Shown here piece by piece: positions 3,107-29,079 of a stretch of 33,781 nucleotides of DNA (positions are counted from its first letter, which is position 1; every line of letters starts with the position of its first letter). Location of the stretch: the NCBI GenBank assembly GCA_934162555.1, contig CAKPJE010000002.1, positions 1-33,781 on the forward strand, given 5' to 3'. This DNA comes from an uncultured Bacilli bacterium (lineage in GTDB: Bacteria > Bacillota_I > Bacilli_A > RF39 > UBA660). Made by a program: the position numbers and the translations under genes. The notes under the pieces are model-generated. The model did not search any database and had not been told where the DNA came from. It was given only the letters and a program-made list of their open reading frames with translations.

Positions 3107-5176
3107 ATGAATAAATGGAAGTTATTTGTGCTTTTAGGTCTAATACTATTAATAATAGGGGTAATGGGTTTATTTTTTAGACAAGATGAAGTAGTAGAAA
3201 ATATAGAGAGTATAGAATTTAAACTTGATAATTCTAATAGGAAACAAACCAATTTTATACTTATAGATAAAGATGCAGGAAAATTTAATGTAGTTATAGA
3301 TACAACGGGGTTAAACTTTGATATGGATTGTACAATTACAGTTGACTCATCTAATAAAAATTTAAAGTTTTATACTGATAAAAACTATTCTAATGAACTT
3401 TCAAAATATAATTATATTCAAAATAATGAGAAAAAAACAATAACAATATACTACCATGGGAATAATATAACAGATGAACAAGTAAGTATAAGTGTTGAAA
3501 ATGAGGTTAAGCATAAAAAGATTCAAACAGAAATAGAGAGTATAGAATTTGAACTTGATGATGACGATAAGATACAAACAAAGTCTATGGTTATAGATAA
3601 AAATAGGGGTAAATTTAATGTTGTTATTAAAAGAACGGATTTAACCTTTGATACAGATTGTACAATTACAATTGATTCATCTGATAAAAATTTAAAGTTT
3701 TATACTGATAAAAACTACAAGAGTAAACTTTCAGAATATAATTTTACTCAAAATAATGATGAACAAACAATAACAATATACTATCGAGGAGATAATAAAA
3801 CAAGTAATGTTCAAGTAAATATAAATGTTGAAAATAAAAATAAAAACGAAATTATAAGAGATGCTAAAATGATGGAGCAAAAAGAAAATTTTGCCTTTTG
3901 GACTAAAGAATATAGAAAAAATATAAAACATATAATTTTTGAAAAGGGTATTAGTAATGTACCTAAAGATTGTACTGAAAAAAATAAATGTTTTGATATT
4001 AGTTCAAGAGCATCAAAGAATAAAGTATATGCCTATATAATTGATAATGATTTGCACATAGCAAGTGAGTATGAAATTCATGCTCCATCCAATAGTTCAT
4101 ATATGTTTAAAGATTTTGAAAAAGTAGAAAGTATTGATTTTTCTAACTTTAATACAATGGATGTAAAAAATATGAAGGGAATGTTTGAAAATTGTTCATC
4201 CTTAATAAGCTTGGATTTGAAAAGTTTTGATACCTCAAACGTAACTAATATGGGTAGTATGTTTAGTTGGTGTTGGCAATTAACGAGTATAGATTTAAGT
4301 AACTTTAATACCTCAAAAGTAACAAGAATGTATATGATGTTTTTTAAGTGTTCATCATTAACAAACCTAGATTTAAGCAGTTTTAATACATCAAATGTAA
4401 CAGATATGGGTGTTATGTTTTTTGACTGCAGATCTTTGACGAGCTTGAATTTGAACAGTTTTAACACCTCAAACGTAACTGACATGAGCTACATGTTTGA
4501 GAGTTGCGAAAAACTATTAAATTTAAACTTAAGTAGTTTTGATACAACGAACGTAACAACTATGTACTGCATGTTTATTCGGTGTTCATCTTTAACAAAC
4601 CTAGATTTAAGTAGTTTTAATACATCAAAAGTAACAAATATGGATGGTATGTTTAGGGATTGTTCATCTCTAACAAGTTTGAATATCAGTAATTTTAATA
4701 CCTCAAATGTAACAAATATGGATGGCATGTTTGATGATTGTTCATCTTTAACAACCTTAAATTTAAGTAGTTTTGATACAACAAATGTAATAGATATGGG
4801 AGCAATGTTTGCTGGCTGCTCATCCTTAACAAGTTTGGATTTAAGTAATTTTGATACATCAAATGTAACAGATATGGGATACATGTTTTATAACTGTGAA
4901 AATCTAATCAATTTAAAGATAAATTTTGATGCTTCGAAAGTAACAGATATGCGTAGTATGTTTTCTGGATGTGAAAGAATAATTACTCAAATTAACATAA
5001 CAAATGATAGTAACCTAGAATATAATGGTATATTTGAAAATACTGCCACTTATGAAGGATCAAGTATAATATTAGGCTATACTGATGAAACATATGAAAC
5101 AGTAATTAAAATGAAAGGAAACAATGAAAGAATAATACTCAAAAAAATAGAGACTGTTGAAAAAACAAATTATTAA
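3107..5176 (+). CDS. BspA-family / DUF285-type leucine-rich-repeat surface protein, paralogue 1
   Basis: 689 aa. The N-terminus is a hydrophobic signal/anchor (LFVLLGLILLIIGVMGLFF). Two copies of a roughly 100-aa module follow (IESIEF.LD...GKFNVVI...DCTIT.DS..KNLKFYTDKNY...TITIYY). The C-terminal half has 11 repeats of 26 aa (consensus LDLSNFNTSNVTxMxxMFxxCSSLTS), the repeat known from Pfam DUF285 proteins. Confidence 0.9.
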   Translation: MNKWKLFVLLGLILLIIGVMGLFFRQDEVVENIESIEFKLDNSNRKQTNFILIDKDAGKFNVVIDTTGLNFDMDCTITVDSSNKNLKFYTDKNYSNELSKYNYIQNNEKKTITIYYHGNNITDEQVSISVENEVKHKKIQTEIESIEFELDDDDKIQTKSMVIDKNRGKFNVVIKRTDLTFDTDCTITIDSSDKNLKFYTDKNYKSKLSEYNFTQNNDEQTITIYYRGDNKTSNVQVNINVENKNKNEIIRDAKMMEQKENFAFWTKEYRKNIKHIIFEKGISNVPKDCTEKNKCFDISSRASKNKVYAYIIDNDLHIASEYEIHAPSNSSYMFKDFEKVESIDFSNFNTMDVKNMKGMFENCSSLISLDLKSFDTSNVTNMGSMFSWCWQLTSIDLSNFNTSKVTRMYMMFFKCSSLTNLDLSSFNTSNVTDMGVMFFDCRSLTSLNLNSFNTSNVTDMSYMFESCEKLLNLNLSSFDTTNVTTMYCMFIRCSSLTNLDLSSFNTSKVTNMDGMFRDCSSLTSLNISNFNTSNVTNMDGMFDDCSSLTTLNLSSFDTTNVIDMGAMFAGCSSLTSLDLSNFDTSNVTDMGYMFYNCENLINLKINFDASKVTDMRSMFSGCERIITQINITNDSNLEYNGIFENTATYEGSSIILGYTDETYETVIKMKGNNERIILKKIETVEKTNY
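4130..4984 (+). repeat. Coding array of 11 x 78-bp (26-codon) DUF285-type LRR units
   Basis: The motif TACCTCAAA recurs at 4231 and 4309 (78-bp period). Protein repeats run from SIDFSNFNTMDVKNMKGMFENCSSLI to NLKINFDASKVTDMRSMFSGCERII. Confidence 0.9.
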
Positions 5177-5252: not shown

Positions 5253-7280
5253 ATGAATAAATGGAAGTTATTTGTGCTTTTAGGTCTAATACTATTAATA
5301 ATAGGGGTAATGGGTTTATTTTTTAGACAAGATGAAGTAGTAGAAAATATAGAGAGTATAGAATTTAAACTTGATAATTCTAATAGGAAACAAACCAATT
5401 TTATACTTATAGATAAAGATGCAGGAAAATTTAATGTAGTTATAGATACAACGGGGTTAAACTTTGATATGGATTGTACAATTACAGTTGACTCATCTAA
5501 TAAAAATTTAAAGTTTTATACTGATAAAAACTATTCTAATGAACTTTCAAAATATAATTATATTCAAAATAATGAGAAAAAAACAATAACAATATACTAC
5601 CATGGGAATAATATAACAGATGAACAAGTAAGTATAAATGTCGAAAATGAAGTTAAGCATAAAAATGAGATTCAAATAGAAATAGAGAGTATAGAGTTTG
5701 AACTTGATGATTCTGATAGAAGACAAACAAAGTCTATAGTTATAGATAGAGATATAGGTGAATTTAATGTTGTTATAGATACAACAGGATTGAACTTCGA
5801 TATGGATTGTACAATTACAATTGATTCACCTGATTATAAATTAGAGTTTTATACTGATGAAAACTATAAGAATGAATTTTCAGGATATAATTATATTCAA
5901 AATAATGAGAAAAAAACAATAACAATATACTACATATATAGATACTACTATAGTGATGATAATAAACTAAATAATATTCAAGTAGATATAAATGTTGAAA
6001 ATAAAAATAAAAACGAAATTATAAGAGATGCTAAAATGATGGAGCAAAAAGAAAATTTTGCCTTTTGGACTAAAGAATATAGAAAAAATATAAAACATAT
6101 AATTTTTGAAAAGGGTATAAGTAATATACCTAAAGATTGTACTGAAAAAAATAAATGTTTTGATATTAGTTCAAGTGCGTCAAAAAATAAAGTATATGCC
6201 TATATAATCAATAATGATTTGCACATAGCAAGTGAGTATGAAATCTATGCCCCATCTAATAGTTCATATATGTTTAAAGATTTTGAAAAAGTAGAAAGTA
6301 TTGATTTTTCTAACTTTAATACAATGGATGTAACATCTATGAGTGCTATGTTTCAAAGTTGTTCATCTTTAACAAACTTAGATTTAAGTAATTTCAATAC
6401 TTCAAAAGTAACAGATATGGGTGCAATGTTTAAAGATTGTTCATCATTAATAAGCTTAGACTTAAGTAATTTTGACACATCAAATGTTATATATTTTGGA
6501 TATAATTTACCATTTAGAGCAGGAATGCATGGTATGTTTTCTGGGTGCTTATCATTAAAAAGTTTAAATGTAAGTAGTTTTAATACCGCGAATGCAGTTA
6601 ATATGCAAGGCATGTTTTCTGATTGTTCATCCCTTACGAGTTTAAACTTGAGTAGTTTTGATACTTTAAAAGTAACAGCTATAGATTTTATGTTCGCAGA
6701 TTGTTCATCTTTAACAAAATTAGACTTAAGTAATTTTAATACTTCAAAAGTAACAACTATGTACGGCGTGTTTAGTAATTGTTCATCATTGACAAGTTTA
6801 AATGTAAGTAATTTTAACACCTCAAAAGTAACACATATGTATATGATGTTTTTTGGTTGTTCATCTTTAACAAGTTTAGATTTAAGTAGTTTTGATACGT
6901 CAAATGCACACAATATGTCATATATGTTTTCTAATTGCTCTTCATTAACCAGCTTGGATTTAAGTAATTTTAATACTTCAAAAGTAATAGATATGGAAAA
7001 CATGTTTCAAAATTGTGAAAACCTAACCAATTTAAAAATAAACTTCGATACCTCAAAAGTAGAAGTATCAGATATGAAAGGTATGTTTTCTGGATGTAAA
7101 AAAATAATTACTCAAATTAATATAATAAATTATGCTTATTGGGCTGATGATAGTGCATTCAAAAATGCTGCTATTTATGAAGGATCAAGTATAATATTAG
7201 GCTATACTGATGAAACATATGAAACAGTAATTAAAATGAAAGGTAACAATGAAAGAATAATACTCAAAAAAATAAACTAG
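5253..7280 (+). CDS. BspA-family / DUF285-type leucine-rich-repeat surface protein, paralogue 2
   Basis: 675 aa. The first 128 residues are identical to paralogue 1 and the architecture is the same. There are 10 LRR units, one of which has a roughly 10-aa insertion (IYFGYNLPFRAGMH). The C-terminal YEGSSIILGYTDETYETVIKMKGNNERIILKKI is shared with paralogue 1. Confidence 0.9.
   Translation: MNKWKLFVLLGLILLIIGVMGLFFRQDEVVENIESIEFKLDNSNRKQTNFILIDKDAGKFNVVIDTTGLNFDMDCTITVDSSNKNLKFYTDKNYSNELSKYNYIQNNEKKTITIYYHGNNITDEQVSINVENEVKHKNEIQIEIESIEFELDDSDRRQTKSIVIDRDIGEFNVVIDTTGLNFDMDCTITIDSPDYKLEFYTDENYKNEFSGYNYIQNNEKKTITIYYIYRYYYSDDNKLNNIQVDINVENKNKNEIIRDAKMMEQKENFAFWTKEYRKNIKHIIFEKGISNIPKDCTEKNKCFDISSSASKNKVYAYIINNDLHIASEYEIYAPSNSSYMFKDFEKVESIDFSNFNTMDVTSMSAMFQSCSSLTNLDLSNFNTSKVTDMGAMFKDCSSLISLDLSNFDTSNVIYFGYNLPFRAGMHGMFSGCLSLKSLNVSSFNTANAVNMQGMFSDCSSLTSLNLSSFDTLKVTAIDFMFADCSSLTKLDLSNFNTSKVTTMYGVFSNCSSLTSLNVSNFNTSKVTHMYMMFFGCSSLTSLDLSSFDTSNAHNMSYMFSNCSSLTSLDLSNFNTSKVIDMENMFQNCENLTNLKINFDTSKVEVSDMKGMFSGCKKIITQINIINYAYWADDSAFKNAAIYEGSSIILGYTDETYETVIKMKGNNERIILKKIN
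6297..7110 (+). repeat. Coding array of 10 DUF285-type LRR units (78-bp period)
   Basis: Protein repeats run from SIDFSNFNTMDVTSMSAMFQSCSSLT to NLKINFDTSKVEVSDMKGMFSGCKKII. Confidence 0.9.
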
Positions 7281-15570: not shown

Positions 15571-16056
15571 ATGAATAGCAAAACTAAAAAAATAATTATG
15601 TACTGTTCAATAATAGGCCTTGTAATGATAGCAACAGGTACATTTGCATATTTTAAAAGTGGTGATGCATATAATGTTAAAGGACAAGTTATAAGCTGGT
15701 CATTTAAAGCAGAAAGTAAAGGAGATACAGAATCATTTACAAAAGCATTAGGAGACATTGCCCCTGGTTCAACGGGCTCATTTGTAGTTAATTTAGATCC
15801 AACTGGTTCAACAACCAATGTTGAATGTTCAATAACACCAAATATTGCCAGTTCATTAGCAGGCATGAAATTATATAGTGATTCTGCTAAAACTACAGAA
15901 ATTACTGCTGATAATCCACTTAAAGTTAATTTAACAGCTAGAAGTTCAGCCCAAAATGTAACAGTTTATTGGTTATGGGAATATGATACCGGATTACTAA
16001 CAAATCAAAGTATTTCATTTTCTATAAATGTCGTTGGAAAGCAAGTTGCATCATAG
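15571..16056 (+). CDS. Small secreted protein with a SipW-cognate (TasA/CalY-type) signal peptide
   Basis: The N-terminus MNSKTKKIIMYCSIIGLVMIATGTFAYFKSGD matches the GGGTFAYFSD-type SipW-dependent signal of TasA/CalY/camelysin. The mature part contains GDIAPGSTGSFVVNLDPTGST, resembling the TasA-family PGD...F...N.GS pattern. Confidence 0.8.
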   Translation: MNSKTKKIIMYCSIIGLVMIATGTFAYFKSGDAYNVKGQVISWSFKAESKGDTESFTKALGDIAPGSTGSFVVNLDPTGSTTNVECSITPNIASSLAGMKLYSDSAKTTEITADNPLKVNLTARSSAQNVTVYWLWEYDTGLLTNQSISFSINVVGKQVAS

Positions 16057-24718: not shown

Positions 24719-25406
24719 TCCTTTGTTTTATATTTTCTCGTTTATTTTACTAGTTACAGGCTTTTTTAAGCCTTTTTTATTTATGATGATTTATTTGATA
24801 ATTCATGAATTAGGTCATATAATTGTGTCATTTTGCTTTGGTTATAAAATTATAAAAATTAATGTTTATCCTTGTGGTTTATTAACTGTATTTGATATGA
24901 AATTAAATGATTCGAGTTTTAAAAATTTATTGATCGCTCTTAGTGGTCCGATTTTTCAGATTGTGTGCTATTTGGTTTTAAAGAAATATTATGAGATTCA
25001 TATGTTTTTACTTATTTTAAATTTACTTCCTATACATCCACTGGATGGTTCAAAGATATTTAGTACTTTTTTATATTTTTTATTTCCTTATAAAACGAGT
25101 AATAATATATTATTTTTTGTTAGTTATATTTTATCTTTATTTATTTTGATGTATTTTATTTTTAATTTTAATTTACTTTATTTGCTCATTTTTATTATTT
25201 TATTTATTAGAACAATTGATCTTTATAAGAATAGGGATTATTTATTTAATTTGTTTGTATTGGAGAGAGTATTATATAATTTTAAATATATGTTTTTCAA
25301 AAAAATTAATAGTATAAATGATATGTATAAGGGGAAATATCATTATATAAGGTTTAAGAATAATTATATAGATGAGAAGAAGTACTTGAAATATTTTTAT
25401 AAATAG
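24681..25406 (+). CDS. spoIVFB: Site-2 metalloprotease (M50B), SpoIVFB-like
   Basis: HELGH motif (LIIHELGHIIVS) in TM2 and LNLLPIHPLDGSKI (NxxPxxxLDG) in a later TM. An alternative start at 24699 (MKNIYINP...) is possible. Confidence 0.8.
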   Translation: MGIYLIMKNIYINPLFYIFSFILLVTGFFKPFLFMMIYLIIHELGHIIVSFCFGYKIIKINVYPCGLLTVFDMKLNDSSFKNLLIALSGPIFQIVCYLVLKKYYEIHMFLLILNLLPIHPLDGSKIFSTFLYFLFPYKTSNNILFFVSYILSLFILMYFIFNFNLLYLLIFIILFIRTIDLYKNRDYLFNLFVLERVLYNFKYMFFKKINSINDMYKGKYHYIRFKNNYIDEKKYLKYFYK

Positions 25407-25587
25407 TGTATAATTCAAGTAAGATATGAAAGGTTTGTTGATAACATGAAACCACTAATACATACATACATGTATTACTAAATAAAAAAATAAAAATAAT
25501 TTTTGTTGATAACTATATTGGGAACAGGGAATATATAGATACTGGTCCTCTTTTTGGTGGTTTAAAAAATATAGAAGGAGGAAGTAT

Positions 25588-27366
25588 ATGAAGAATAGTA
25601 AAAAAATAATTTTAGTTATGGTATCTATAATATGTATAGTAATTTTATTGGTTGGATCAATTGCTTATTATAGGATAGTGGTAAATGGAAGTATAAAGGG
25701 AAGTACTGGTAATGCAGTATTTGTTTTAAGAGATAGCGATAATAGTGTATGGGATAATAAGGTAATAGATTTAGGTAAAATAAATCCTGGAGATAGTGGA
25801 GAGTTTACTGTTACGATGGATGCTAGTGGATCTAGTGTAGATATGTATGCAACATTAGAGATAGAAAGGACAAATTTACCAACTAACTTGAAATTTTATA
25901 CAACATCAGATCATAAGAGTGAATTACACAAGTACTATAGTTTCTTAGAAAATAATGTAACGAATAGTGAAACATTAACTATATATTGGTATTGGAATCC
26001 ATATATAAGTGATGAAGAAGATAATAAATTTATAAATGTATCTAATTTAGAAGCAAATGTTAGGGTAAGTGCAGTACAAATAAGTGAATATGCAATGATG
26101 AAGAATGGTAATGGTGTTACAAGTGATAGTAGATTATATTTTTGGAAAGATACTTATAGACCATATATAAGAACAATAACATTTGGTAATGATTTGAGTA
26201 ATTTACCAAGTAGTTGTACAGAAGAAAACTTATGTTTTGATGTATCAGAAAGTAATAGTAAAAAGAAAGTATATGCTTATTTAATAGATAGTGGATTAAA
26301 AATGAATAATCAATTTACTTTATACAATTTGTATATAGTAAGTGAAGCACCAATATTTGCACCATCTGACTGTTCATTATTCTTTGCGGGATTTAATAGT
26401 TTAGTTAGTATAAATTATAATGATAATTTTAATACATCAAAAGTAACAAATATGAGTTATATGTTTTTACCAATCATATCTGTAGATTGGAGTAATGTTG
26501 TTACTTTAACATCAAGTATTAAAAATGTTAAACCATCATTTTTAAATAATAAAAGGAATGATATTAAAACAGAATTGCTTGCACTACCTCCAAGCGGTGA
26601 TATGATAATCTTTGGAAATTACTACTCCTCACTGACTGAACTAAACCTTAGCTCATTTAATACAAAAAATGTAGTAAATATGAAATATATGTTTACAAAA
26701 AATGATACTCTAATCAGTTTGAATTTAAGTAATTTTAATACAATTAATGTTGAGAATTTAGAGGGGTTATTTTATGAGTGCATAGGTATTAGCAAATTGA
26801 ATTTAAAAAGTTTTAATACATCAAAAACAATGAATATGCAAATGATGTTTTCTGGTTGTCAATCATTAACGAATTTAGGCATAAGTAGTTTTAATACATC
26901 AAATGTAACAAATATGCGTAGGATGTTTGATGGTTGCGAATCCTTAACAAAATTAGATTTAAGTAGTTTTAATACTTTAAAAGTAACAGATATGAGTAGT
27001 ATGTTTTCTGATTGTTCATCCTTAACAAGTCTAGATTTAGGTAATTTTAATACATCGAATGTAACAAATATGAATATGATGTTTGTGGGTTGCGAATCCT
27101 TGACAAATATAGATTTAAGTAATTTTAATACATCGAAAGTAACAGATATGGGTTATATGTTTTCTGACTGTACTAAAATTCAATTAAAAATTACAGTTAT
27201 GAATCCAAATATGACATCTTATGATAGTATATTGGATGGAGAAGCACTTAACGATACAAATGCTTATGCTATAATAAGTTATACAGAGAGTACACAATCT
27301 ATTGCTACAGCTATGAAAAATACTTGTAATAATTCATCTAAAATAACATTGAAACAAATTTCATAA
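25588..27366 (+). CDS. BspA-family / DUF285-type LRR surface protein, paralogue 3, with a TasA-like N-terminal module
   Basis: GGAGGA RBS upstream. Signal/anchor is KKIILVMVSIICIVILLVGSIAYY. One N-terminal module (LGKINPGDSGEFTVTMDASGSS...NLKFYTTSDHKS...TLTIYWYWNPY) aligns with the protein encoded at 15571-16056. The linker YFWKDTYRPYIRTITFGNDLSNLPSSCTEENLCFDVSESNSKKKVYAYLID resembles paralogues 1 and 2. About 9 LRR units of 26 aa follow. Confidence 0.9.
   Translation: MKNSKKIILVMVSIICIVILLVGSIAYYRIVVNGSIKGSTGNAVFVLRDSDNSVWDNKVIDLGKINPGDSGEFTVTMDASGSSVDMYATLEIERTNLPTNLKFYTTSDHKSELHKYYSFLENNVTNSETLTIYWYWNPYISDEEDNKFINVSNLEANVRVSAVQISEYAMMKNGNGVTSDSRLYFWKDTYRPYIRTITFGNDLSNLPSSCTEENLCFDVSESNSKKKVYAYLIDSGLKMNNQFTLYNLYIVSEAPIFAPSDCSLFFAGFNSLVSINYNDNFNTSKVTNMSYMFLPIISVDWSNVVTLTSSIKNVKPSFLNNKRNDIKTELLALPPSGDMIIFGNYYSSLTELNLSSFNTKNVVNMKYMFTKNDTLISLNLSNFNTINVENLEGLFYECIGISKLNLKSFNTSKTMNMQMMFSGCQSLTNLGISSFNTSNVTNMRRMFDGCESLTKLDLSSFNTLKVTDMSSMFSDCSSLTSLDLGNFNTSNVTNMNMMFVGCESLTNIDLSNFNTSKVTDMGYMFSDCTKIQLKITVMNPNMTSYDSILDGEALNDTNAYAIISYTESTQSIATAMKNTCNNSSKITLKQIS
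26408..27185 (+). repeat. Coding DUF285-type LRR array (78-bp period) interrupted by a roughly 50-codon non-repeat insertion
   Basis: Units include LNLSSFNTKNVVNMKYMFTKNDTLIS, LGISSFNTSNVTNMRRMFDGCESLTK and LDLSSFNTLKVTDMSSMFSDCSSLTS. The insertion LPIISVDWSNVVTLTSSIKNVKPSFLNNKRNDIKTELLALPPSGDMIIFGNYY lies at about 26467-26630. Confidence 0.85.
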
Positions 27367-27393
27367 AAAAGAGTTCAGATTTGAACTCTTTTA
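27365..27393. terminator. Bidirectional intrinsic terminator between convergent genes
   Basis: AAAAAA, GAGTTCA (27371-27377), loop GATT, TGAACTC (27382-27388), TTTT. The flanking A and T runs allow it to work on both strands. Confidence 0.7.
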
Positions 27394-29079
27394 ACTTGTT
27401 ATAGTAACAACATAAGTTTTTCCCTGTGTTACCTTAGTACCATTTTTAACACTTGAATTTTCATGAATAAAACCAGCATTATTGTAAGTGTTGCTTGCTT
27501 TGGTAACAAAAGTAAATATAACTCCAGGATATTTTTTATTAAACAAACTCTTTAAATTTTCAATAGTTTTAGAAGCATTATTAATAACTAAATCAGTTTC
27601 ATTTATTTCAATAGTAAACGTTTTAGCAATACCACTACTTAATGAAATCTTAACATAAGTTCCCTCAGCAACCTGTCTTGAAGCATTAATTGTTTGCGTA
27701 ACGCCAATATCTTTATCAGTATTAATAGTATAACCATAATAATTAAATGAACAATTTAAGTTTAATGATCTACATTTACTCTCAATATCAGACTTCTTCA
27801 TTCCTTTAAAATTAGGCATTGTAACAGCTTTACCATTTGATATAGTTAAAGTTATAACATCAGAATCAGAAATAACATCATCTTCATTATGTGAAGACTT
27901 AATTAAACCATTTTTCGGAACAGTATTACTGAAACTATAATTTATATCATATTTAATACCATTATTTGAAGCCCATATTTTAAAATCAGATAAATTAGTA
28001 AATTTGATCATTTTTAAAGAACCCTTACTGGTAGTAATAATAATAGTAGTTCCTTGTTCTATAACATCATTTTCTTTATAGTTAGTATCTATTATTTTAC
28101 CAATCTCATATTCCTTATTATAATCTTCTTTATATTCAACATTCAAATTATTATCAGTTAGCCATTTTGTAATTTCTTCCTTTGACATTCCTTTTAAGTT
28201 AGGAACTATAATACTTTTCCCCTTAGAAACATATATAGTAACACTATCATTTTCATTTAGCTTAGTATTTTCATCAATACTTTGTTTAAAAATTAAATTT
28301 TTATCTATATCATTGTAATTATATTCTATAGTATATTTAATGCCATTCATGTCTAACCATAATTTAGCTTCGAATAATGATTTATTTACTAAATTAGCCA
28401 TTTCTATCTCTTTAAAAGGTGACTTTACAACCTCAACAATTAATTTATCATTTCTCTTAATATTACCGGTTAAAGATTGACTTATTATTTTATTTGGTTC
28501 ATTATCATTAGTAACAAATTTTATTTCAACATTATTAAAATAGTTATTATTTATAAATTTTACTAATTCTTCAATATCTTCACCAACAAAAGAAGGAAGT
28601 GTAATACTTAAATCATAGTTAGGGCCATTAGAAATAATTAATTCTATTTCTTTAATGTTATCTAATGATTCATTTATTAGATTTTGATTTATAACATAAT
28701 ATTTTGGTATATAATCACTATAATCATATTTTTCAATAATATTAATATTATTTTCTTTTGCATAACTTAAAGCTTCAGTTAAAGATTTATTTTGTAAATT
28801 TTGAATATATTTTGTTTCTTTTTTAGTATTACCTGTAGGACGGGCAAATGTATAAGCATTAAAACCAGTTAAACAAATAATAAGCAGTGCAATAAAGTTG
28901 TACATTTTTATTTTTTTACTAGGCATTAGTAGTAAGATTGACATTAAACTAACTAATAAAGCTGTAATAAGTAAATTTAAATTTCCCTTTTGCATATTTA
29001 TTATGATAAATACTAGGAAACTTAAAGTTACAATGATTGCTAAAATTATTAAAATTTTTGATTGTTTTTTATTTTCCAT
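27391..29079 (-). CDS. Membrane protein with multiple extracellular PASTA-like domains and no kinase or transpeptidase domain
   Basis: 562 aa. About 3 N-terminal TM helices are followed by repeated roughly 65-70-aa units that start with a V/MPN(L/F)KGM motif (IVPNLKGMSKEEITKWLTDNNLNVEY...; TMPNFKGMKKSDIESKCRSLNLNCSF...; LPSFVGEDIEELVKFI...; MANLVNKSLFEAKLWLDMNGIKYTIEY...). This pattern is typical of PASTA repeats. There are no Hanks-kinase motifs. Confidence 0.75.
   Translation of the reverse strand: MENKKQSKILIILAIIVTLSFLVFIIINMQKGNLNLLITALLVSLMSILLLMPSKKIKMYNFIALLIICLTGFNAYTFARPTGNTKKETKYIQNLQNKSLTEALSYAKENNINIIEKYDYSDYIPKYYVINQNLINESLDNIKEIELIISNGPNYDLSITLPSFVGEDIEELVKFINNNYFNNVEIKFVTNDNEPNKIISQSLTGNIKRNDKLIVEVVKSPFKEIEMANLVNKSLFEAKLWLDMNGIKYTIEYNYNDIDKNLIFKQSIDENTKLNENDSVTIYVSKGKSIIVPNLKGMSKEEITKWLTDNNLNVEYKEDYNKEYEIGKIIDTNYKENDVIEQGTTIIITTSKGSLKMIKFTNLSDFKIWASNNGIKYDINYSFSNTVPKNGLIKSSHNEDDVISDSDVITLTISNGKAVTMPNFKGMKKSDIESKCRSLNLNCSFNYYGYTINTDKDIGVTQTINASRQVAEGTYVKISLSSGIAKTFTIEINETDLVINNASKTIENLKSLFNKKYPGVIFTFVTKASNTYNNAGFIHENSSVKNGTKVTQGKTYVVTITS

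What the first reader, a model, noticed from the sequence alone, without database searches (positions are those of the whole stretch)
25588..27366. Fusion of a TasA-like module to DUF285/BspA leucine-rich repeats: an architecture I do not know as characterised
The third paralogue joins three parts:
- a SipW-like signal/anchor and one TasA-like module;
- a conserved Cys-containing linker (SSCTEENLCFDVSESNSKKKVYAYLID) shared with the tandem genes;
- about 9 DUF285-type LRR units.

DUF285 repeats were described mainly from Mollicutes surface lipoproteins, while TasA-type signals come from spore-forming Bacilli. This gene lies immediately after the sporulation genes spoIVFA and spoIVFB, and the tandem pair lies next to a germinant-receptor operon. 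A spore-surface or biofilm-matrix location is therefore conceivable, but this is only inference. The LRR array is also broken by a roughly 50-aa non-repeat insertion at about 26467-26630, between MSYMF and SSLT of one unit. That insertion would form a loop or extra subdomain on the solenoid.
Basis: partly seen in the sequence, partly recalled or inferred. Interest (0 to 1): 0.6.

Follow-up and report, generated by a model that had tools for sequence, protein, structure and literature searches.

The report
TasA-like handle fused to LRR adhesin
This gene of an uncultured small-genome gut bacterium joins a distant relative of the TasA biofilm-fibre subunit, with its special export signal, to a leucine-rich-repeat binding domain. 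Each genome of the genus carries 21-36 matches to this N-terminal part. The design recurs but I found no paper describing it, and mounting on a fibre is inferred, not shown.

Summary
ORF 25588-27366 encodes a 592-aa protein with these parts:
- a signal peptide;
- a ~120-aa beta-sandwich module;
- a folded Cys-containing LRR cap;
- eight 26-aa PARCEL/DUF285 units;
- a real, variable ~50-aa insertion in the first unit.

The module matches no Pfam or NCBIfam model. Profile-profile comparison links it to small SipW-operon proteins (98%, E 1.8e-13; 91.6% without the signal peptide). Those proteins in turn hit AbpX and TasA, so it is a divergent TasA-superfamily member, not a Peptidase_M73 member.

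Its family has 3232 clusters, and the module is N-terminal in all 150 listed. The family keeps a small -3/-1 cleavage motif with an aromatic P2' residue in 101 of 102 members. Stand-alone members lie beside SipW-type peptidase genes in at least 11 genomes.

The fusion is not rare. This genome holds 41 family ORFs (4.6% of its bases), and all six genomes of the genus carry 21-36 matches.

The sporulation neighbourhood is incidental, because three sister species lack any gene at this site.

Best reading: a SipW-processed, variable LRR adhesin held by its TasA-like handle, probably by donor-strand docking (untested). This scan has already met the same design on other DNA.

The parts
25386..25414 (+). 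Sigma-70-like promoter, TTGAAA-17-TATAAT, 11 of 12 matches
   Evidence: This is a consensus match only.
25428..25587 (+). Conserved upstream cassette, probably the 5' leader. It holds direct repeats TTTGTTGATAAC at 25434-25445 and 25502-25513, the palindrome TAATACAT-N6-ATGTATTA at 25456-25477, and the RBS GGAGG at 25577-25581.
   Evidence: The repeat occurs 34 times in the genome against 0.6 expected. The palindrome core occurs 25 times. The cassette lies upstream of 14 or more family genes and at contig ends.
25588..25665 (+). Signal peptide, residues 1-26. Predicted SipW-type cleavage lies after S24-I25-A26, before Y27-Y28.
   Evidence: P1 is A or S in 102 of 102 members, and P2' is Y or F in 101 of 102. 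The cleavage site is set by analogy with TasA (PMC10269814, PMC9674648) and was not measured.
25666..25722 (+). Conserved mature N-terminal stretch, residues 27-45 (YYRIVVNGSIKGSTGNAVF). Candidate donor strand.
   Evidence: A26, Y27, Y28, G34 and F45 are invariant in 44 homologues. pLDDT is low in the monomer models. The role is inferred from TasA residues 28-38.
25723..26091 (+). TasA-superfamily beta-sandwich module, residues 46-168
26092..26154 (+). Hinge between module and LRR domain, residues 169-189. Partly low confidence.
   Evidence: pLDDT is below 50 at residues 176-183.
26155..26403 (+). Folded N-terminal cap of the LRR solenoid, residues 190-272.
   Evidence: Matches to residues 164-260 alone occur in other ORFs of the genus.
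26404..27177 (+). Eight 26-aa PARCEL/DUF285 LRR units, residues 273-530
26467..26631 (+). Variable 55-aa stretch (about 50 extra residues) inserted in the first LRR unit, residues 294-348. Predicted to be a flexible loop.
27178..27366 (+). C-terminal cap of the solenoid, residues 531-592, plus the stop codon. No LPXTG, no lipobox, no wall-binding domain.
   Evidence: pLDDT is mostly above 90 (blocks 88-97).
27367..27392 (+). Intrinsic-terminator-like hairpin with T-run
15571..16056 (+). Stand-alone 161-aa member of the module family, with a GTFAYF signal end. Candidate fibre subunit.
   Evidence: BLASTP 1e-12 from residue 1. TIGR04088 scores 14.7-17.4 bits, below the cut-off of 19.
3107..5176 (+). 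Tandem paralogue, 689 aa: TM or signal, two modules in tandem, cap, PARCEL repeats
5253..7280 (+). Tandem paralogue, 675 aa. Its first ~130 residues are identical to those of 3107-5176.

Best explanation
The gene encodes a secreted, variable surface adhesin. It is exported through Sec. A SipW-type (archaeal-type) signal peptidase removes its signal peptide after Ala26. The new N-terminus and the following beta-sandwich form a divergent TasA-superfamily unit that acts as the handle. Most probably this handle docks by donor-strand complementation, either onto fibres built from the stand-alone 160-195-aa family members encoded beside SipW genes or onto other fusion proteins.

The handle holds out a C-terminal PARCEL/DUF285 leucine-rich-repeat solenoid as the ligand-binding head. 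Repeat number and a variable loop in the first unit diversify that head.

Shown here: the architecture, the remote homology, the conserved cleavage motif, the SipW linkage of stand-alone relatives, the gene-family expansion, and the absence of any other anchor.

Inferred: cleavage by SipW, donor-strand docking, and adhesion.
For: Architecture and repeats.

Homology of the handle:
- BLASTP to the stand-alone 161-aa protein from residue 1 gives 1e-12.
- The family profile finds 3232 clusters at E<=1e-3. In all 150 listed hits the module is N-terminal, about half are stand-alone, and passengers vary.
- hhalign to PF12389-positive SipW-operon proteins gives 98%, E 1.8e-13 over 163 columns. Without the signal peptide it gives 91.6%, E 8e-7.
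- That comparison set hits AbpX 9sj2 at 9.7e-7 and TasA 5of1 at 1.4e-3.
- ESM-Atlas fold neighbours include clusters in which 70% and 27% of members carry PF12389.

Signal: P1 is A or S in 102 of 102, P3 is small, and P2' is Y or F in 101 of 102. An aromatic P2' is the feature that makes TasA a SipW substrate (PMC10269814, abstract seen).

SipW linkage:
- SipW-type genes are present in this genome.
- One lies beside a 194-aa family member.
- Adjacency within about 1.5 kb occurs in at least 11 other genomes.

Candidate donor strand: residues 27-45 are conserved but poorly placed in the monomer models. They sit where TasA has its donor strand, residues 28-38.

No other anchor: there is no LPXTG although sortases exist, no lipobox, and no wall-binding domain.

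Adhesin head: the nearest solved folds are cell-surface LRR proteins of gut bacteria, 4fs7 and 4fd0.
Against: - No Pfam or NCBIfam TasA/SipW model reaches threshold on this protein.
- The family profile hits no solved structure by sequence.
- Fold matches are middling: Z 5.8 to the TasA fibre and 7.6 to CsuA/B, all below 8. That is the range of a common Ig-like arrangement.
- This gene is not next to a SipW gene.
- The tandem paralogues carry two modules in series and lack the G-[ST]-x-A-Y-Y motif. That fits a spacer role better than a polymerising one.
- Nothing here tests cleavage, assembly or binding.
Confidence: 0.55

Rival explanations
1. Membrane-anchored adhesin. The N-terminal hydrophobic segment is an uncleaved signal anchor. 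The beta-sandwich is a passive Ig-like stalk that lifts the LRR head off the membrane, with no fibre involved.
For: - AF2 models residues 4-30 as one long helix.
- The tandem paralogues have two modules in series, like stalk domains, and a different N-terminus.
- Fold matches are generic Ig-like.
- There is no SipW gene beside this gene.
Against: - The -3/-1 small residues and the aromatic P2' are kept in 101-102 of 102 family members. The 20 residues after them are also conserved, which a plain anchor would not need.
- Stand-alone members of about 165 aa would then be anchors with nothing to display.
- Family members are repeatedly adjacent to SipW-type peptidase genes.
Confidence: 0.25
2. 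Released soluble LRR protein. The signal peptide is cleaved and the whole protein diffuses away to bind host or microbial ligands. The module is only a folding or solubility domain.
For: No recognisable wall or membrane anchor. LRR domains often act as soluble binders.
Against: - A module conserved at the N-terminus across 3232 clusters and fused to many adhesin-type passengers (DUF285, Flg_new, Big_2, LRR_5) points to a shared surface or display role.
- It is homologous to fibre subunits.
Confidence: 0.1
3. Spore-surface or sporulation-linked protein. It would be expressed with spoIVFA/FB and deposited on the spore, as TasA was first described.
For: - The gene follows SpoIVFA-like (Peptidase_M23) and SpoIVFB-like (Peptidase_M50) genes.
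- A GerA operon lies next to the tandem pair.
- TasA was first described as spore-coat-associated (PMC9674648).
- CATACA motifs occur in the upstream cassette, though the genome is only about 25% G+C.
Against: - In three sister species spoIVFB directly abuts the PASTA gene (86% identical orthologue), so the position is a recent insertion.
- The gene has its own promoter-like site and terminator.
- The 41 family ORFs are scattered over many contigs.
Confidence: 0.07

Closest known systems
TasA / CalY fibre subunits of Bacillus (tapA-sipW-tasA; Pfam Peptidase_M73; PDB 5OF1, 8AUR)
   Same: - Signal peptide with small -3/-1 residues and an aromatic P2' residue.
- A beta-sandwich directly after a conserved mature N-terminus.
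- Relatives encoded beside archaeal-type signal peptidase genes.
- Remote homology through an intermediate profile.
   Different: - No PF12389 or TIGR04088 match.
- The module is about 120 aa, against about 210 aa for mature TasA, and lacks TasA's helical inserts.
- It carries a 400-aa LRR passenger.
- No TapA-like partner was identified.
- Fibre formation is untested.
AbpX/AbpA-type fibres of the TasA superfamily, whose loci hold minor subunits, predicted tip proteins and anchors (bioRxiv 10.64898/2026.01.04.697558; PMC9245690)
   Same: - A small jelly-roll subunit with a dedicated TIGR02228-type peptidase.
- That preprint already predicts accessory proteins that join the fibre by donor-strand complementation.
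- The intermediate profile used here hits AbpX best, 9.7e-7.
   Different: - Here the subunit-like domain and the binding domain are one polypeptide.
- It is multiplied to 21-36 matches per genome and scattered outside the peptidase loci.
- There is no direct sequence hit of this family to AbpX.
PARCEL/DUF285 surface proteins of mycoplasmas and Listeria (PF03382, TIGR02167) and BspA-type LRR surface proteins of gut bacteria (PDB 4FS7, 4FD0)
   Same: The same 26-aa repeat, scoring E 4.9e-64. Multigene families of variable surface proteins. The closest solved folds.
   Different: The NCBIfam models name those proteins surface lipoproteins. This one has no lipobox and uses a TasA-like N-terminal module.
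Two-domain adhesins of chaperone-usher pili (FimH, PapG, CsuE)
   Same: The working logic is the same: one pilin-like beta-sandwich that plugs into a fibre plus one binding domain. Pilin domains of PapG, FimG and CsuA/B are among the best fold matches, Z 6.3-7.6.
   Different: - This is an analogy, not homology.
- The domain order is reversed.
- The host is not an outer-membrane bacterium of the kind that builds these pili; no chaperone or usher gene was looked for here.
- The Z scores lie in the range of chance-level Ig-like similarity.

Membership tests
Pfam Peptidase_M73 (PF12389, TasA/camelysin) | HMM match at or above the gathering score (22.5 bits) | tested here: not met
   - No hit on P0001 at E<=10.
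- None of 142 family representatives matches at E<=0.001.
- The six-frame search of the genome finds only one 15.8-bit hit, elsewhere.
TasA superfamily (TasA, AbpA, AbpX, CanA, Tafi; sensu 10.64898/2026.01.04.697558) | Detectable remote homology of the beta-sandwich to accepted members | tested here: met
   - hhalign of A2 against A5 gives 98%, E 1.8e-13. Mature parts only give 91.6%, E 8e-7.
- A5 hits AbpX at 9.7e-7 and TasA at 1.4e-3.
- The link is transitive, not direct.
TasA superfamily | Jelly-roll or beta-sandwich fold like TasA, AbpA or CanA | tested here: inconclusive
   - TasA fibre 8aur: Z 5.8, 124 residues aligned, rmsd 3.5.
- CanA 9dlo: Z 6.5.
- AbpA 7ueg: Foldseek E 2.6e-3.
- All sit among many Ig-like matches.
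- Atlas clusters with 70% PF12389 members: TM 0.51.
SipW-dependent substrates (NCBIfam TIGR04088 cognate_SipW) | Signal peptide recognised by the model (cut-off 19 bits) | tested here: not met
   No hit on P0001:1-60. The stand-alone paralogue scores 14.7-17.4 bits.
SipW-dependent substrates | Small residues at -3/-1 with an aromatic residue at P2' | tested here: met
   S24, A26 and Y28 in P0001. Across the family: P1 A or S in 102 of 102, and P2' Y or F in 101 of 102.
SipW-dependent substrates | Gene linkage to an archaeal-type signal peptidase I (TIGR02228) | tested here: inconclusive
   Met for stand-alone family members: the C46 locus, at least 11 genomes of the family, and L075. Not met for this gene itself. 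The peptidase is present in the genome.
TasA-type fibres | Polymerisation by N-terminal donor-strand exchange | not testable with these tools
Only positional analogy and conservation of residues 27-45 speak to it.
DUF285 / PARCEL repeat proteins (PF03382, TIGR02167) | Tandem 26-aa repeats matching the models | tested here: met
   159.1 bits and 211.3 bits; 8 stretches.
PARCEL surface lipoproteins (for example NF045896) | Lipoprotein signal with lipobox Cys; full-length model match (500 bits) | tested here: not met
   NF045896 scores 66.7 bits against a cut-off of 500. There is no conserved Cys at the signal end.
BspA-type LRR (PF13306 LRR_5) | HMM match | tested here: not met
   Not among the Pfam hits of P0001 at E<=1. 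Some close homologues carry precomputed PF13306 hits.
Sortase-anchored internalin-like LRR proteins | C-terminal LPXTG sorting signal | tested here: not met
   The C-terminus ends ...KITLKQIS without motif or hydrophobic tail. Sortases do exist in the genome.

The most novel reading that the evidence does not exclude
TasA-type fibres serve this small-genome gut lineage as a sortase-independent display rack. Dozens of LRR adhesins share one fibre-docking handle and one promoter/leader cassette. They would be plugged into fibres made of the small stand-alone subunits, and could be expressed in changing subsets. That would be a Gram-positive counterpart of tip-adhesin pili, combined with mycoplasma-style surface variation.
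Probability: 0.3. Interest if true: 0.75.

Novelty: new variant of a known kind. Interest (0 to 1): 0.5.

Why it matters
TasA-superfamily fibres are known as matrix scaffolds. Adhesins built onto a subunit-like domain have only been predicted as accessory or tip proteins in a recent preprint. This lineage devotes 4.6% of a roughly 1-Mb assembly to such fusions. If the handle really docks into fibres, it would show how wall-poor, small-genome gut Bacilli display a large and variable adhesin repertoire without sortase signals or lipid anchors.

The finding also gives testable parts: a predicted cleavage site, a 19-residue candidate donor strand, stand-alone partner subunits, and a shared upstream cassette. 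In addition it defines a large N-terminal domain family (3232 clusters) that has no Pfam or NCBIfam model.

Tried and rejected
- **Direct sequence search of the family profiles against solved structures.** No meaningful hit.
- **Locus search with the 19-row alignment.** It had no conserved stretch usable for the search.
- **Canonical TasA for a direct profile comparison.** None was found among 401 genomes of the phylum sample at E<=1e-15. Only partial PF12389 matches turned up in the class sample. I used those as the intermediate set.
- **The insertion as two degenerate repeat units.** This was my first idea, taken from the alignment with the tandem genes. I rejected it. Closest paralogues lack the stretch entirely, and its length varies from 42 to 54 aa, which is not a multiple of 26.
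- **Prepilin-type (class III) signal, as in some LRR fusions noted earlier in this scan.** Rejected: there is no G-F-x-x-x-E motif.
- **Lipoprotein.** Rejected: no lipobox.
- **Upstream cassette as a structured RNA.** No Rfam match and a folding z-score of -1.45.
- **Names for homologues.** None was given by any source.
Full report
**Observation**

The ORF at 25588-27366 (+) is intact and encodes 592 residues. It looks like an independent transcription unit. A TTGAAA-17-TATAAT site lies at 25386-25414, a GGAGG six bases before the ATG, and a hairpin with T-run at 27367-27392 directly after the stop.

The C-terminal two thirds are unambiguous. Pfam DUF285 scores E 4.6e-47. The NCBIfam PARCEL repeat TIGR02167 scores E 4.9e-64 with eight stretches. 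Eight F-N-T-anchored units of exactly 26 residues lie between residues 273 and 530.

The first 260 residues match no Pfam or NCBIfam model, even at E<=10.

The full-length AlphaFold2 model has mean pLDDT 78.4 and pTM 0.78. It shows, in order:
- an N-terminal helix;
- a beta-sandwich up to residue 165;
- a short uncertain hinge at 176-183;
- a well-modelled region at 190-272, which contains the conserved C210-x5-C216 stretch;
- the solenoid;
- a confident C-terminal cap.

The 'Cys linker' is therefore better described as the N-terminal cap of the LRR domain. Consistent with that, matches to residues 164-260 alone occur in other ORFs of the genus.

**The insertion**

I first suspected two degenerate repeat units, because the tandem genes align canonical repeats there. 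A 44-sequence alignment says otherwise. P0001-type orthologues have 42-54 extra residues between MSYMF and the next L-x-L-D-L-S, with a loose G-[DN]-W...V-x-L-T...K-P motif and sometimes a poly-Gly run. Paralogues have the canonical 21 residues over the same span. AlphaFold2 gives pLDDT below 50 for residues 298-345.

**What the N-terminal module is**

Within the window, a stand-alone 161-aa protein (15571-16056) aligns with P0001 from residue 1 to 136 (BLASTP 1e-12). That protein ends its signal peptide with A-T-G-T-F-A-Y-F, and TIGR04088 (SipW-dependent signal) scores it just below threshold.

An iterated search of the whole assembly finds 41 ORFs with the module:
- about 23 fused to PARCEL repeats;
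- 3 fused to passengers without a Pfam match;
- 7 complete stand-alone proteins of 161-194 aa;
- several N-terminal fragments at contig ends.

A 19-sequence profile finds 3232 cluster representatives at E<=1e-3 among 1.84 billion proteins. In all 150 listed hits the module is N-terminal, and roughly half of them are stand-alone. Of 142 representatives, 21 carry DUF285, 8 carry Flg_new, and others carry LRR_5, Big_2, DUF6273, Laminin_G_3 or CBM_4_9. None carries Peptidase_M73.

The link to TasA comes from a profile-profile comparison. Twelve small proteins from SipW operons of the same class pass the PF12389 gathering score over their N-terminal part. They align with the module profile at 98% probability, E 1.8e-13, over 163 columns. 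With signal peptide and first strand removed from both sides, the figures are 91.6% and E 8e-7. The profile of those twelve proteins hits AbpX (9sj2, 9.7e-7; 9rhp, 1.3e-4) and TasA (5of1, 1.4e-3; 8aur, 2.7e-3) among solved structures. The module profile itself hits nothing there.

The fold evidence is compatible but not diagnostic. The best matches are donor-strand pilins and relatives:
- CsuA/B, Z 7.6;
- FimG and the PapG pilin domain, about Z 6.5;
- CanA, Z 6.5;
- TasA fibre, Z 5.8, with the longest aligned stretch at 124 residues.

All are below Z 8. ESM-Atlas neighbours include clusters in which 70% and 27% of members carry PF12389, at TM 0.51 and 0.49. I conclude that the module is a divergent TasA-superfamily domain and not a member of Pfam Peptidase_M73.

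**Signal peptide**

In a 102-sequence family alignment, the position of A26 is Ala or Ser in all sequences. Position 24 is Thr, Ala, Ser or Val in 101 of 102. The position of Y28 is Tyr or Phe in 101 of 102. An aromatic P2' residue is the feature reported to make TasA a poor substrate for ordinary signal peptidase and a substrate of SipW (PMC10269814, abstract seen).

The next ~20 residues are also conserved: A26, Y27, Y28, G34 and F45 are invariant in 44 homologues. Yet both monomer models place them poorly. In TasA, the residues right after the cleavage site (28-38) form the donor strand that builds the fibre (PMC9674648).

**SipW linkage**

The assembly encodes archaeal-type signal peptidases; two are above the TIGR02228 cut-off. 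On contig C46 one of them is followed by a 191-aa protein with an F-A-W-F signal end and faces a 194-aa member of the module family. On C24 a weaker peptidase hit is followed by another family member.

In a sample of 119 genomes of the same taxonomic family, 113 have such peptidases and 47 have the module, nearly always as 1-7 stand-alone genes of 190-225 aa. The two lie within about 1.5 kb of each other in at least 11 of these genomes. That is a lower bound, because 167 peptidase matches were not listed. A distant representative from another assembly shows the same arrangement.

**Expansion**

The fusion to PARCEL repeats is a trait of this genus. All six species genomes carry 21-36 matches to residues 1-260 in 1.0-1.3 Mb. 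The other genera sampled mostly have only the stand-alone form. In this 69.5%-complete assembly the family covers 49.7 kb, or 4.6%, and many copies sit at contig ends, so the true number is probably higher.

Close homologues occur in 'uncultured Bacilli' MAGs from human gut and in Firmicutes bacterium CAG:884. In the large protein collection, 952 proteins match the N-terminal part.

**Context**

- Peptidase_M23 and Peptidase_M50 proteins (SpoIVFA/FB-like) upstream;
- a GerA-GerC-GerB operon next to the tandem pair.

But in three sister species spoIVFB is followed directly by the convergent PASTA-domain gene, whose product is 86% identical to the window's. The gene, with its upstream cassette and terminator, was therefore inserted here recently. 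The sporulation neighbourhood says nothing about its function.

**Upstream cassette**

The 160 bases before the ATG are nearly identical in several paralogues. They contain two copies of TTTGTTGATAAC, which occurs 34 times in the genome against 0.6 expected, flanking the palindrome TAATACAT-N6-ATGTATTA, whose core occurs 25 times. The cassette precedes at least 14 family genes of different subfamilies and marks many contig ends. One paralogue has exactly the segment between the two repeats missing. It has no Rfam match, and its RNA folding is not unusual. Its role, whether a common operator, a leader or a recombination site, is open.

**Mechanism**

The protein has no LPXTG although sortases exist, no lipobox, and no wall-binding domain. 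The N-terminal part is therefore the only candidate for retention. I consider most likely (0.55) that it is cleaved by a SipW-type peptidase and held by its TasA-like handle, probably through donor-strand docking with stand-alone subunits or other family members, displaying the LRR head.

The main rival (0.25) is an uncleaved signal anchor with the sandwich acting as a stalk. The tandem paralogues, with two modules in series, favour that reading for at least part of the family. Release as a soluble protein (0.1) and a spore-surface role (0.07) are less likely. Cleavage, assembly and binding are all inferred.

**Comparison and novelty**

The searchable literature holds no paper that combines DUF285 or PARCEL with TasA or SipW. 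A 2026 preprint on AbpX defines the TasA superfamily and already predicts minor subunits, tip proteins and anchors that join such fibres by donor-strand complementation.

Earlier notes of this scan describe the same design, a TasA-like N-module with a SipW-type signal fused to DUF285 or other passengers, in several other uncultured gut and rumen genomes. Those are unchecked AI notes and not independent evidence, but they show that the scan has met this before on other DNA.

I therefore rate this a new variant of a known kind. It recurs, and I found no paper describing it. What sets this window apart is the genus-wide expansion and the shared cassette.

Noticed in passing
window 25428-25587; also G000 contigs C1, C3, C4, C10, C15, C18, C44, C46, C59, C62-C64, C79, C87, C91, C102: A conserved ~160-nt cassette sits upstream of many family genes. 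It has two TTTGTTGATAAC direct repeats (34 genome copies, 0.6 expected) around the palindrome TAATACAT-N6-ATGTATTA. One paralogue (C1:16212-18008) lacks exactly the segment between the repeats. The cassette may be a shared operator, a leader or a recombination site.
   Followed up: partly
window 25407-27392 compared with L076, L077, L078: The whole gene unit is an insertion between spoIVFB and the PASTA-domain gene. Three sister species have these two genes back to back, with a gap of about 10-30 nt. The family therefore seems to spread as promoter-gene-terminator cassettes.
   Followed up: yes
window 3107-5176 and 5253-7280: The tandem paralogues share an identical first ~130 codons, which suggests recent gene conversion or duplication. 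Each carries two modules in series behind an N-terminus that lacks the G-[ST]-x-A-Y-Y motif.
   Followed up: partly
L001 (G000:C46:2864-6334): A SipW-type peptidase gene is followed by a 191-aa protein with an F-A-W-F signal end, which the module profile does not detect. It faces a 194-aa module-family protein. A DUF2357 protein lies upstream. So two different TasA-like classes sit at one peptidase locus.
   Followed up: partly
search of 120 related genomes: Many TIGR02228 matches lie in open frames of 370-420 aa and cover only model positions ~5-135. These may be signal peptidases fused to another domain, perhaps like the SPase I-DUF5305 fusions mentioned in the AbpX preprint.
   Followed up: no
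L029 (G000:C87:2110-4677), L030 (C4:22052-23650), L031 (C6:24350-26005): Three family members carry passengers of 350-680 aa with no Pfam match at E<=0.001.
   Followed up: no
window 27391-29079 (-): A 562-aa protein has five PASTA stretches and no kinase or transpeptidase domain detected at E<=0.01.
   Followed up: no
L074 (G161:C16:6848-10099): In a genome of the same family, a 438-aa protein has a canonical G-G-T-Y-A-W-F signal and a PF12389-positive N-terminus, plus an unknown Cys-rich C-terminal part. It lies next to a prepilin-like gene.
   Followed up: no
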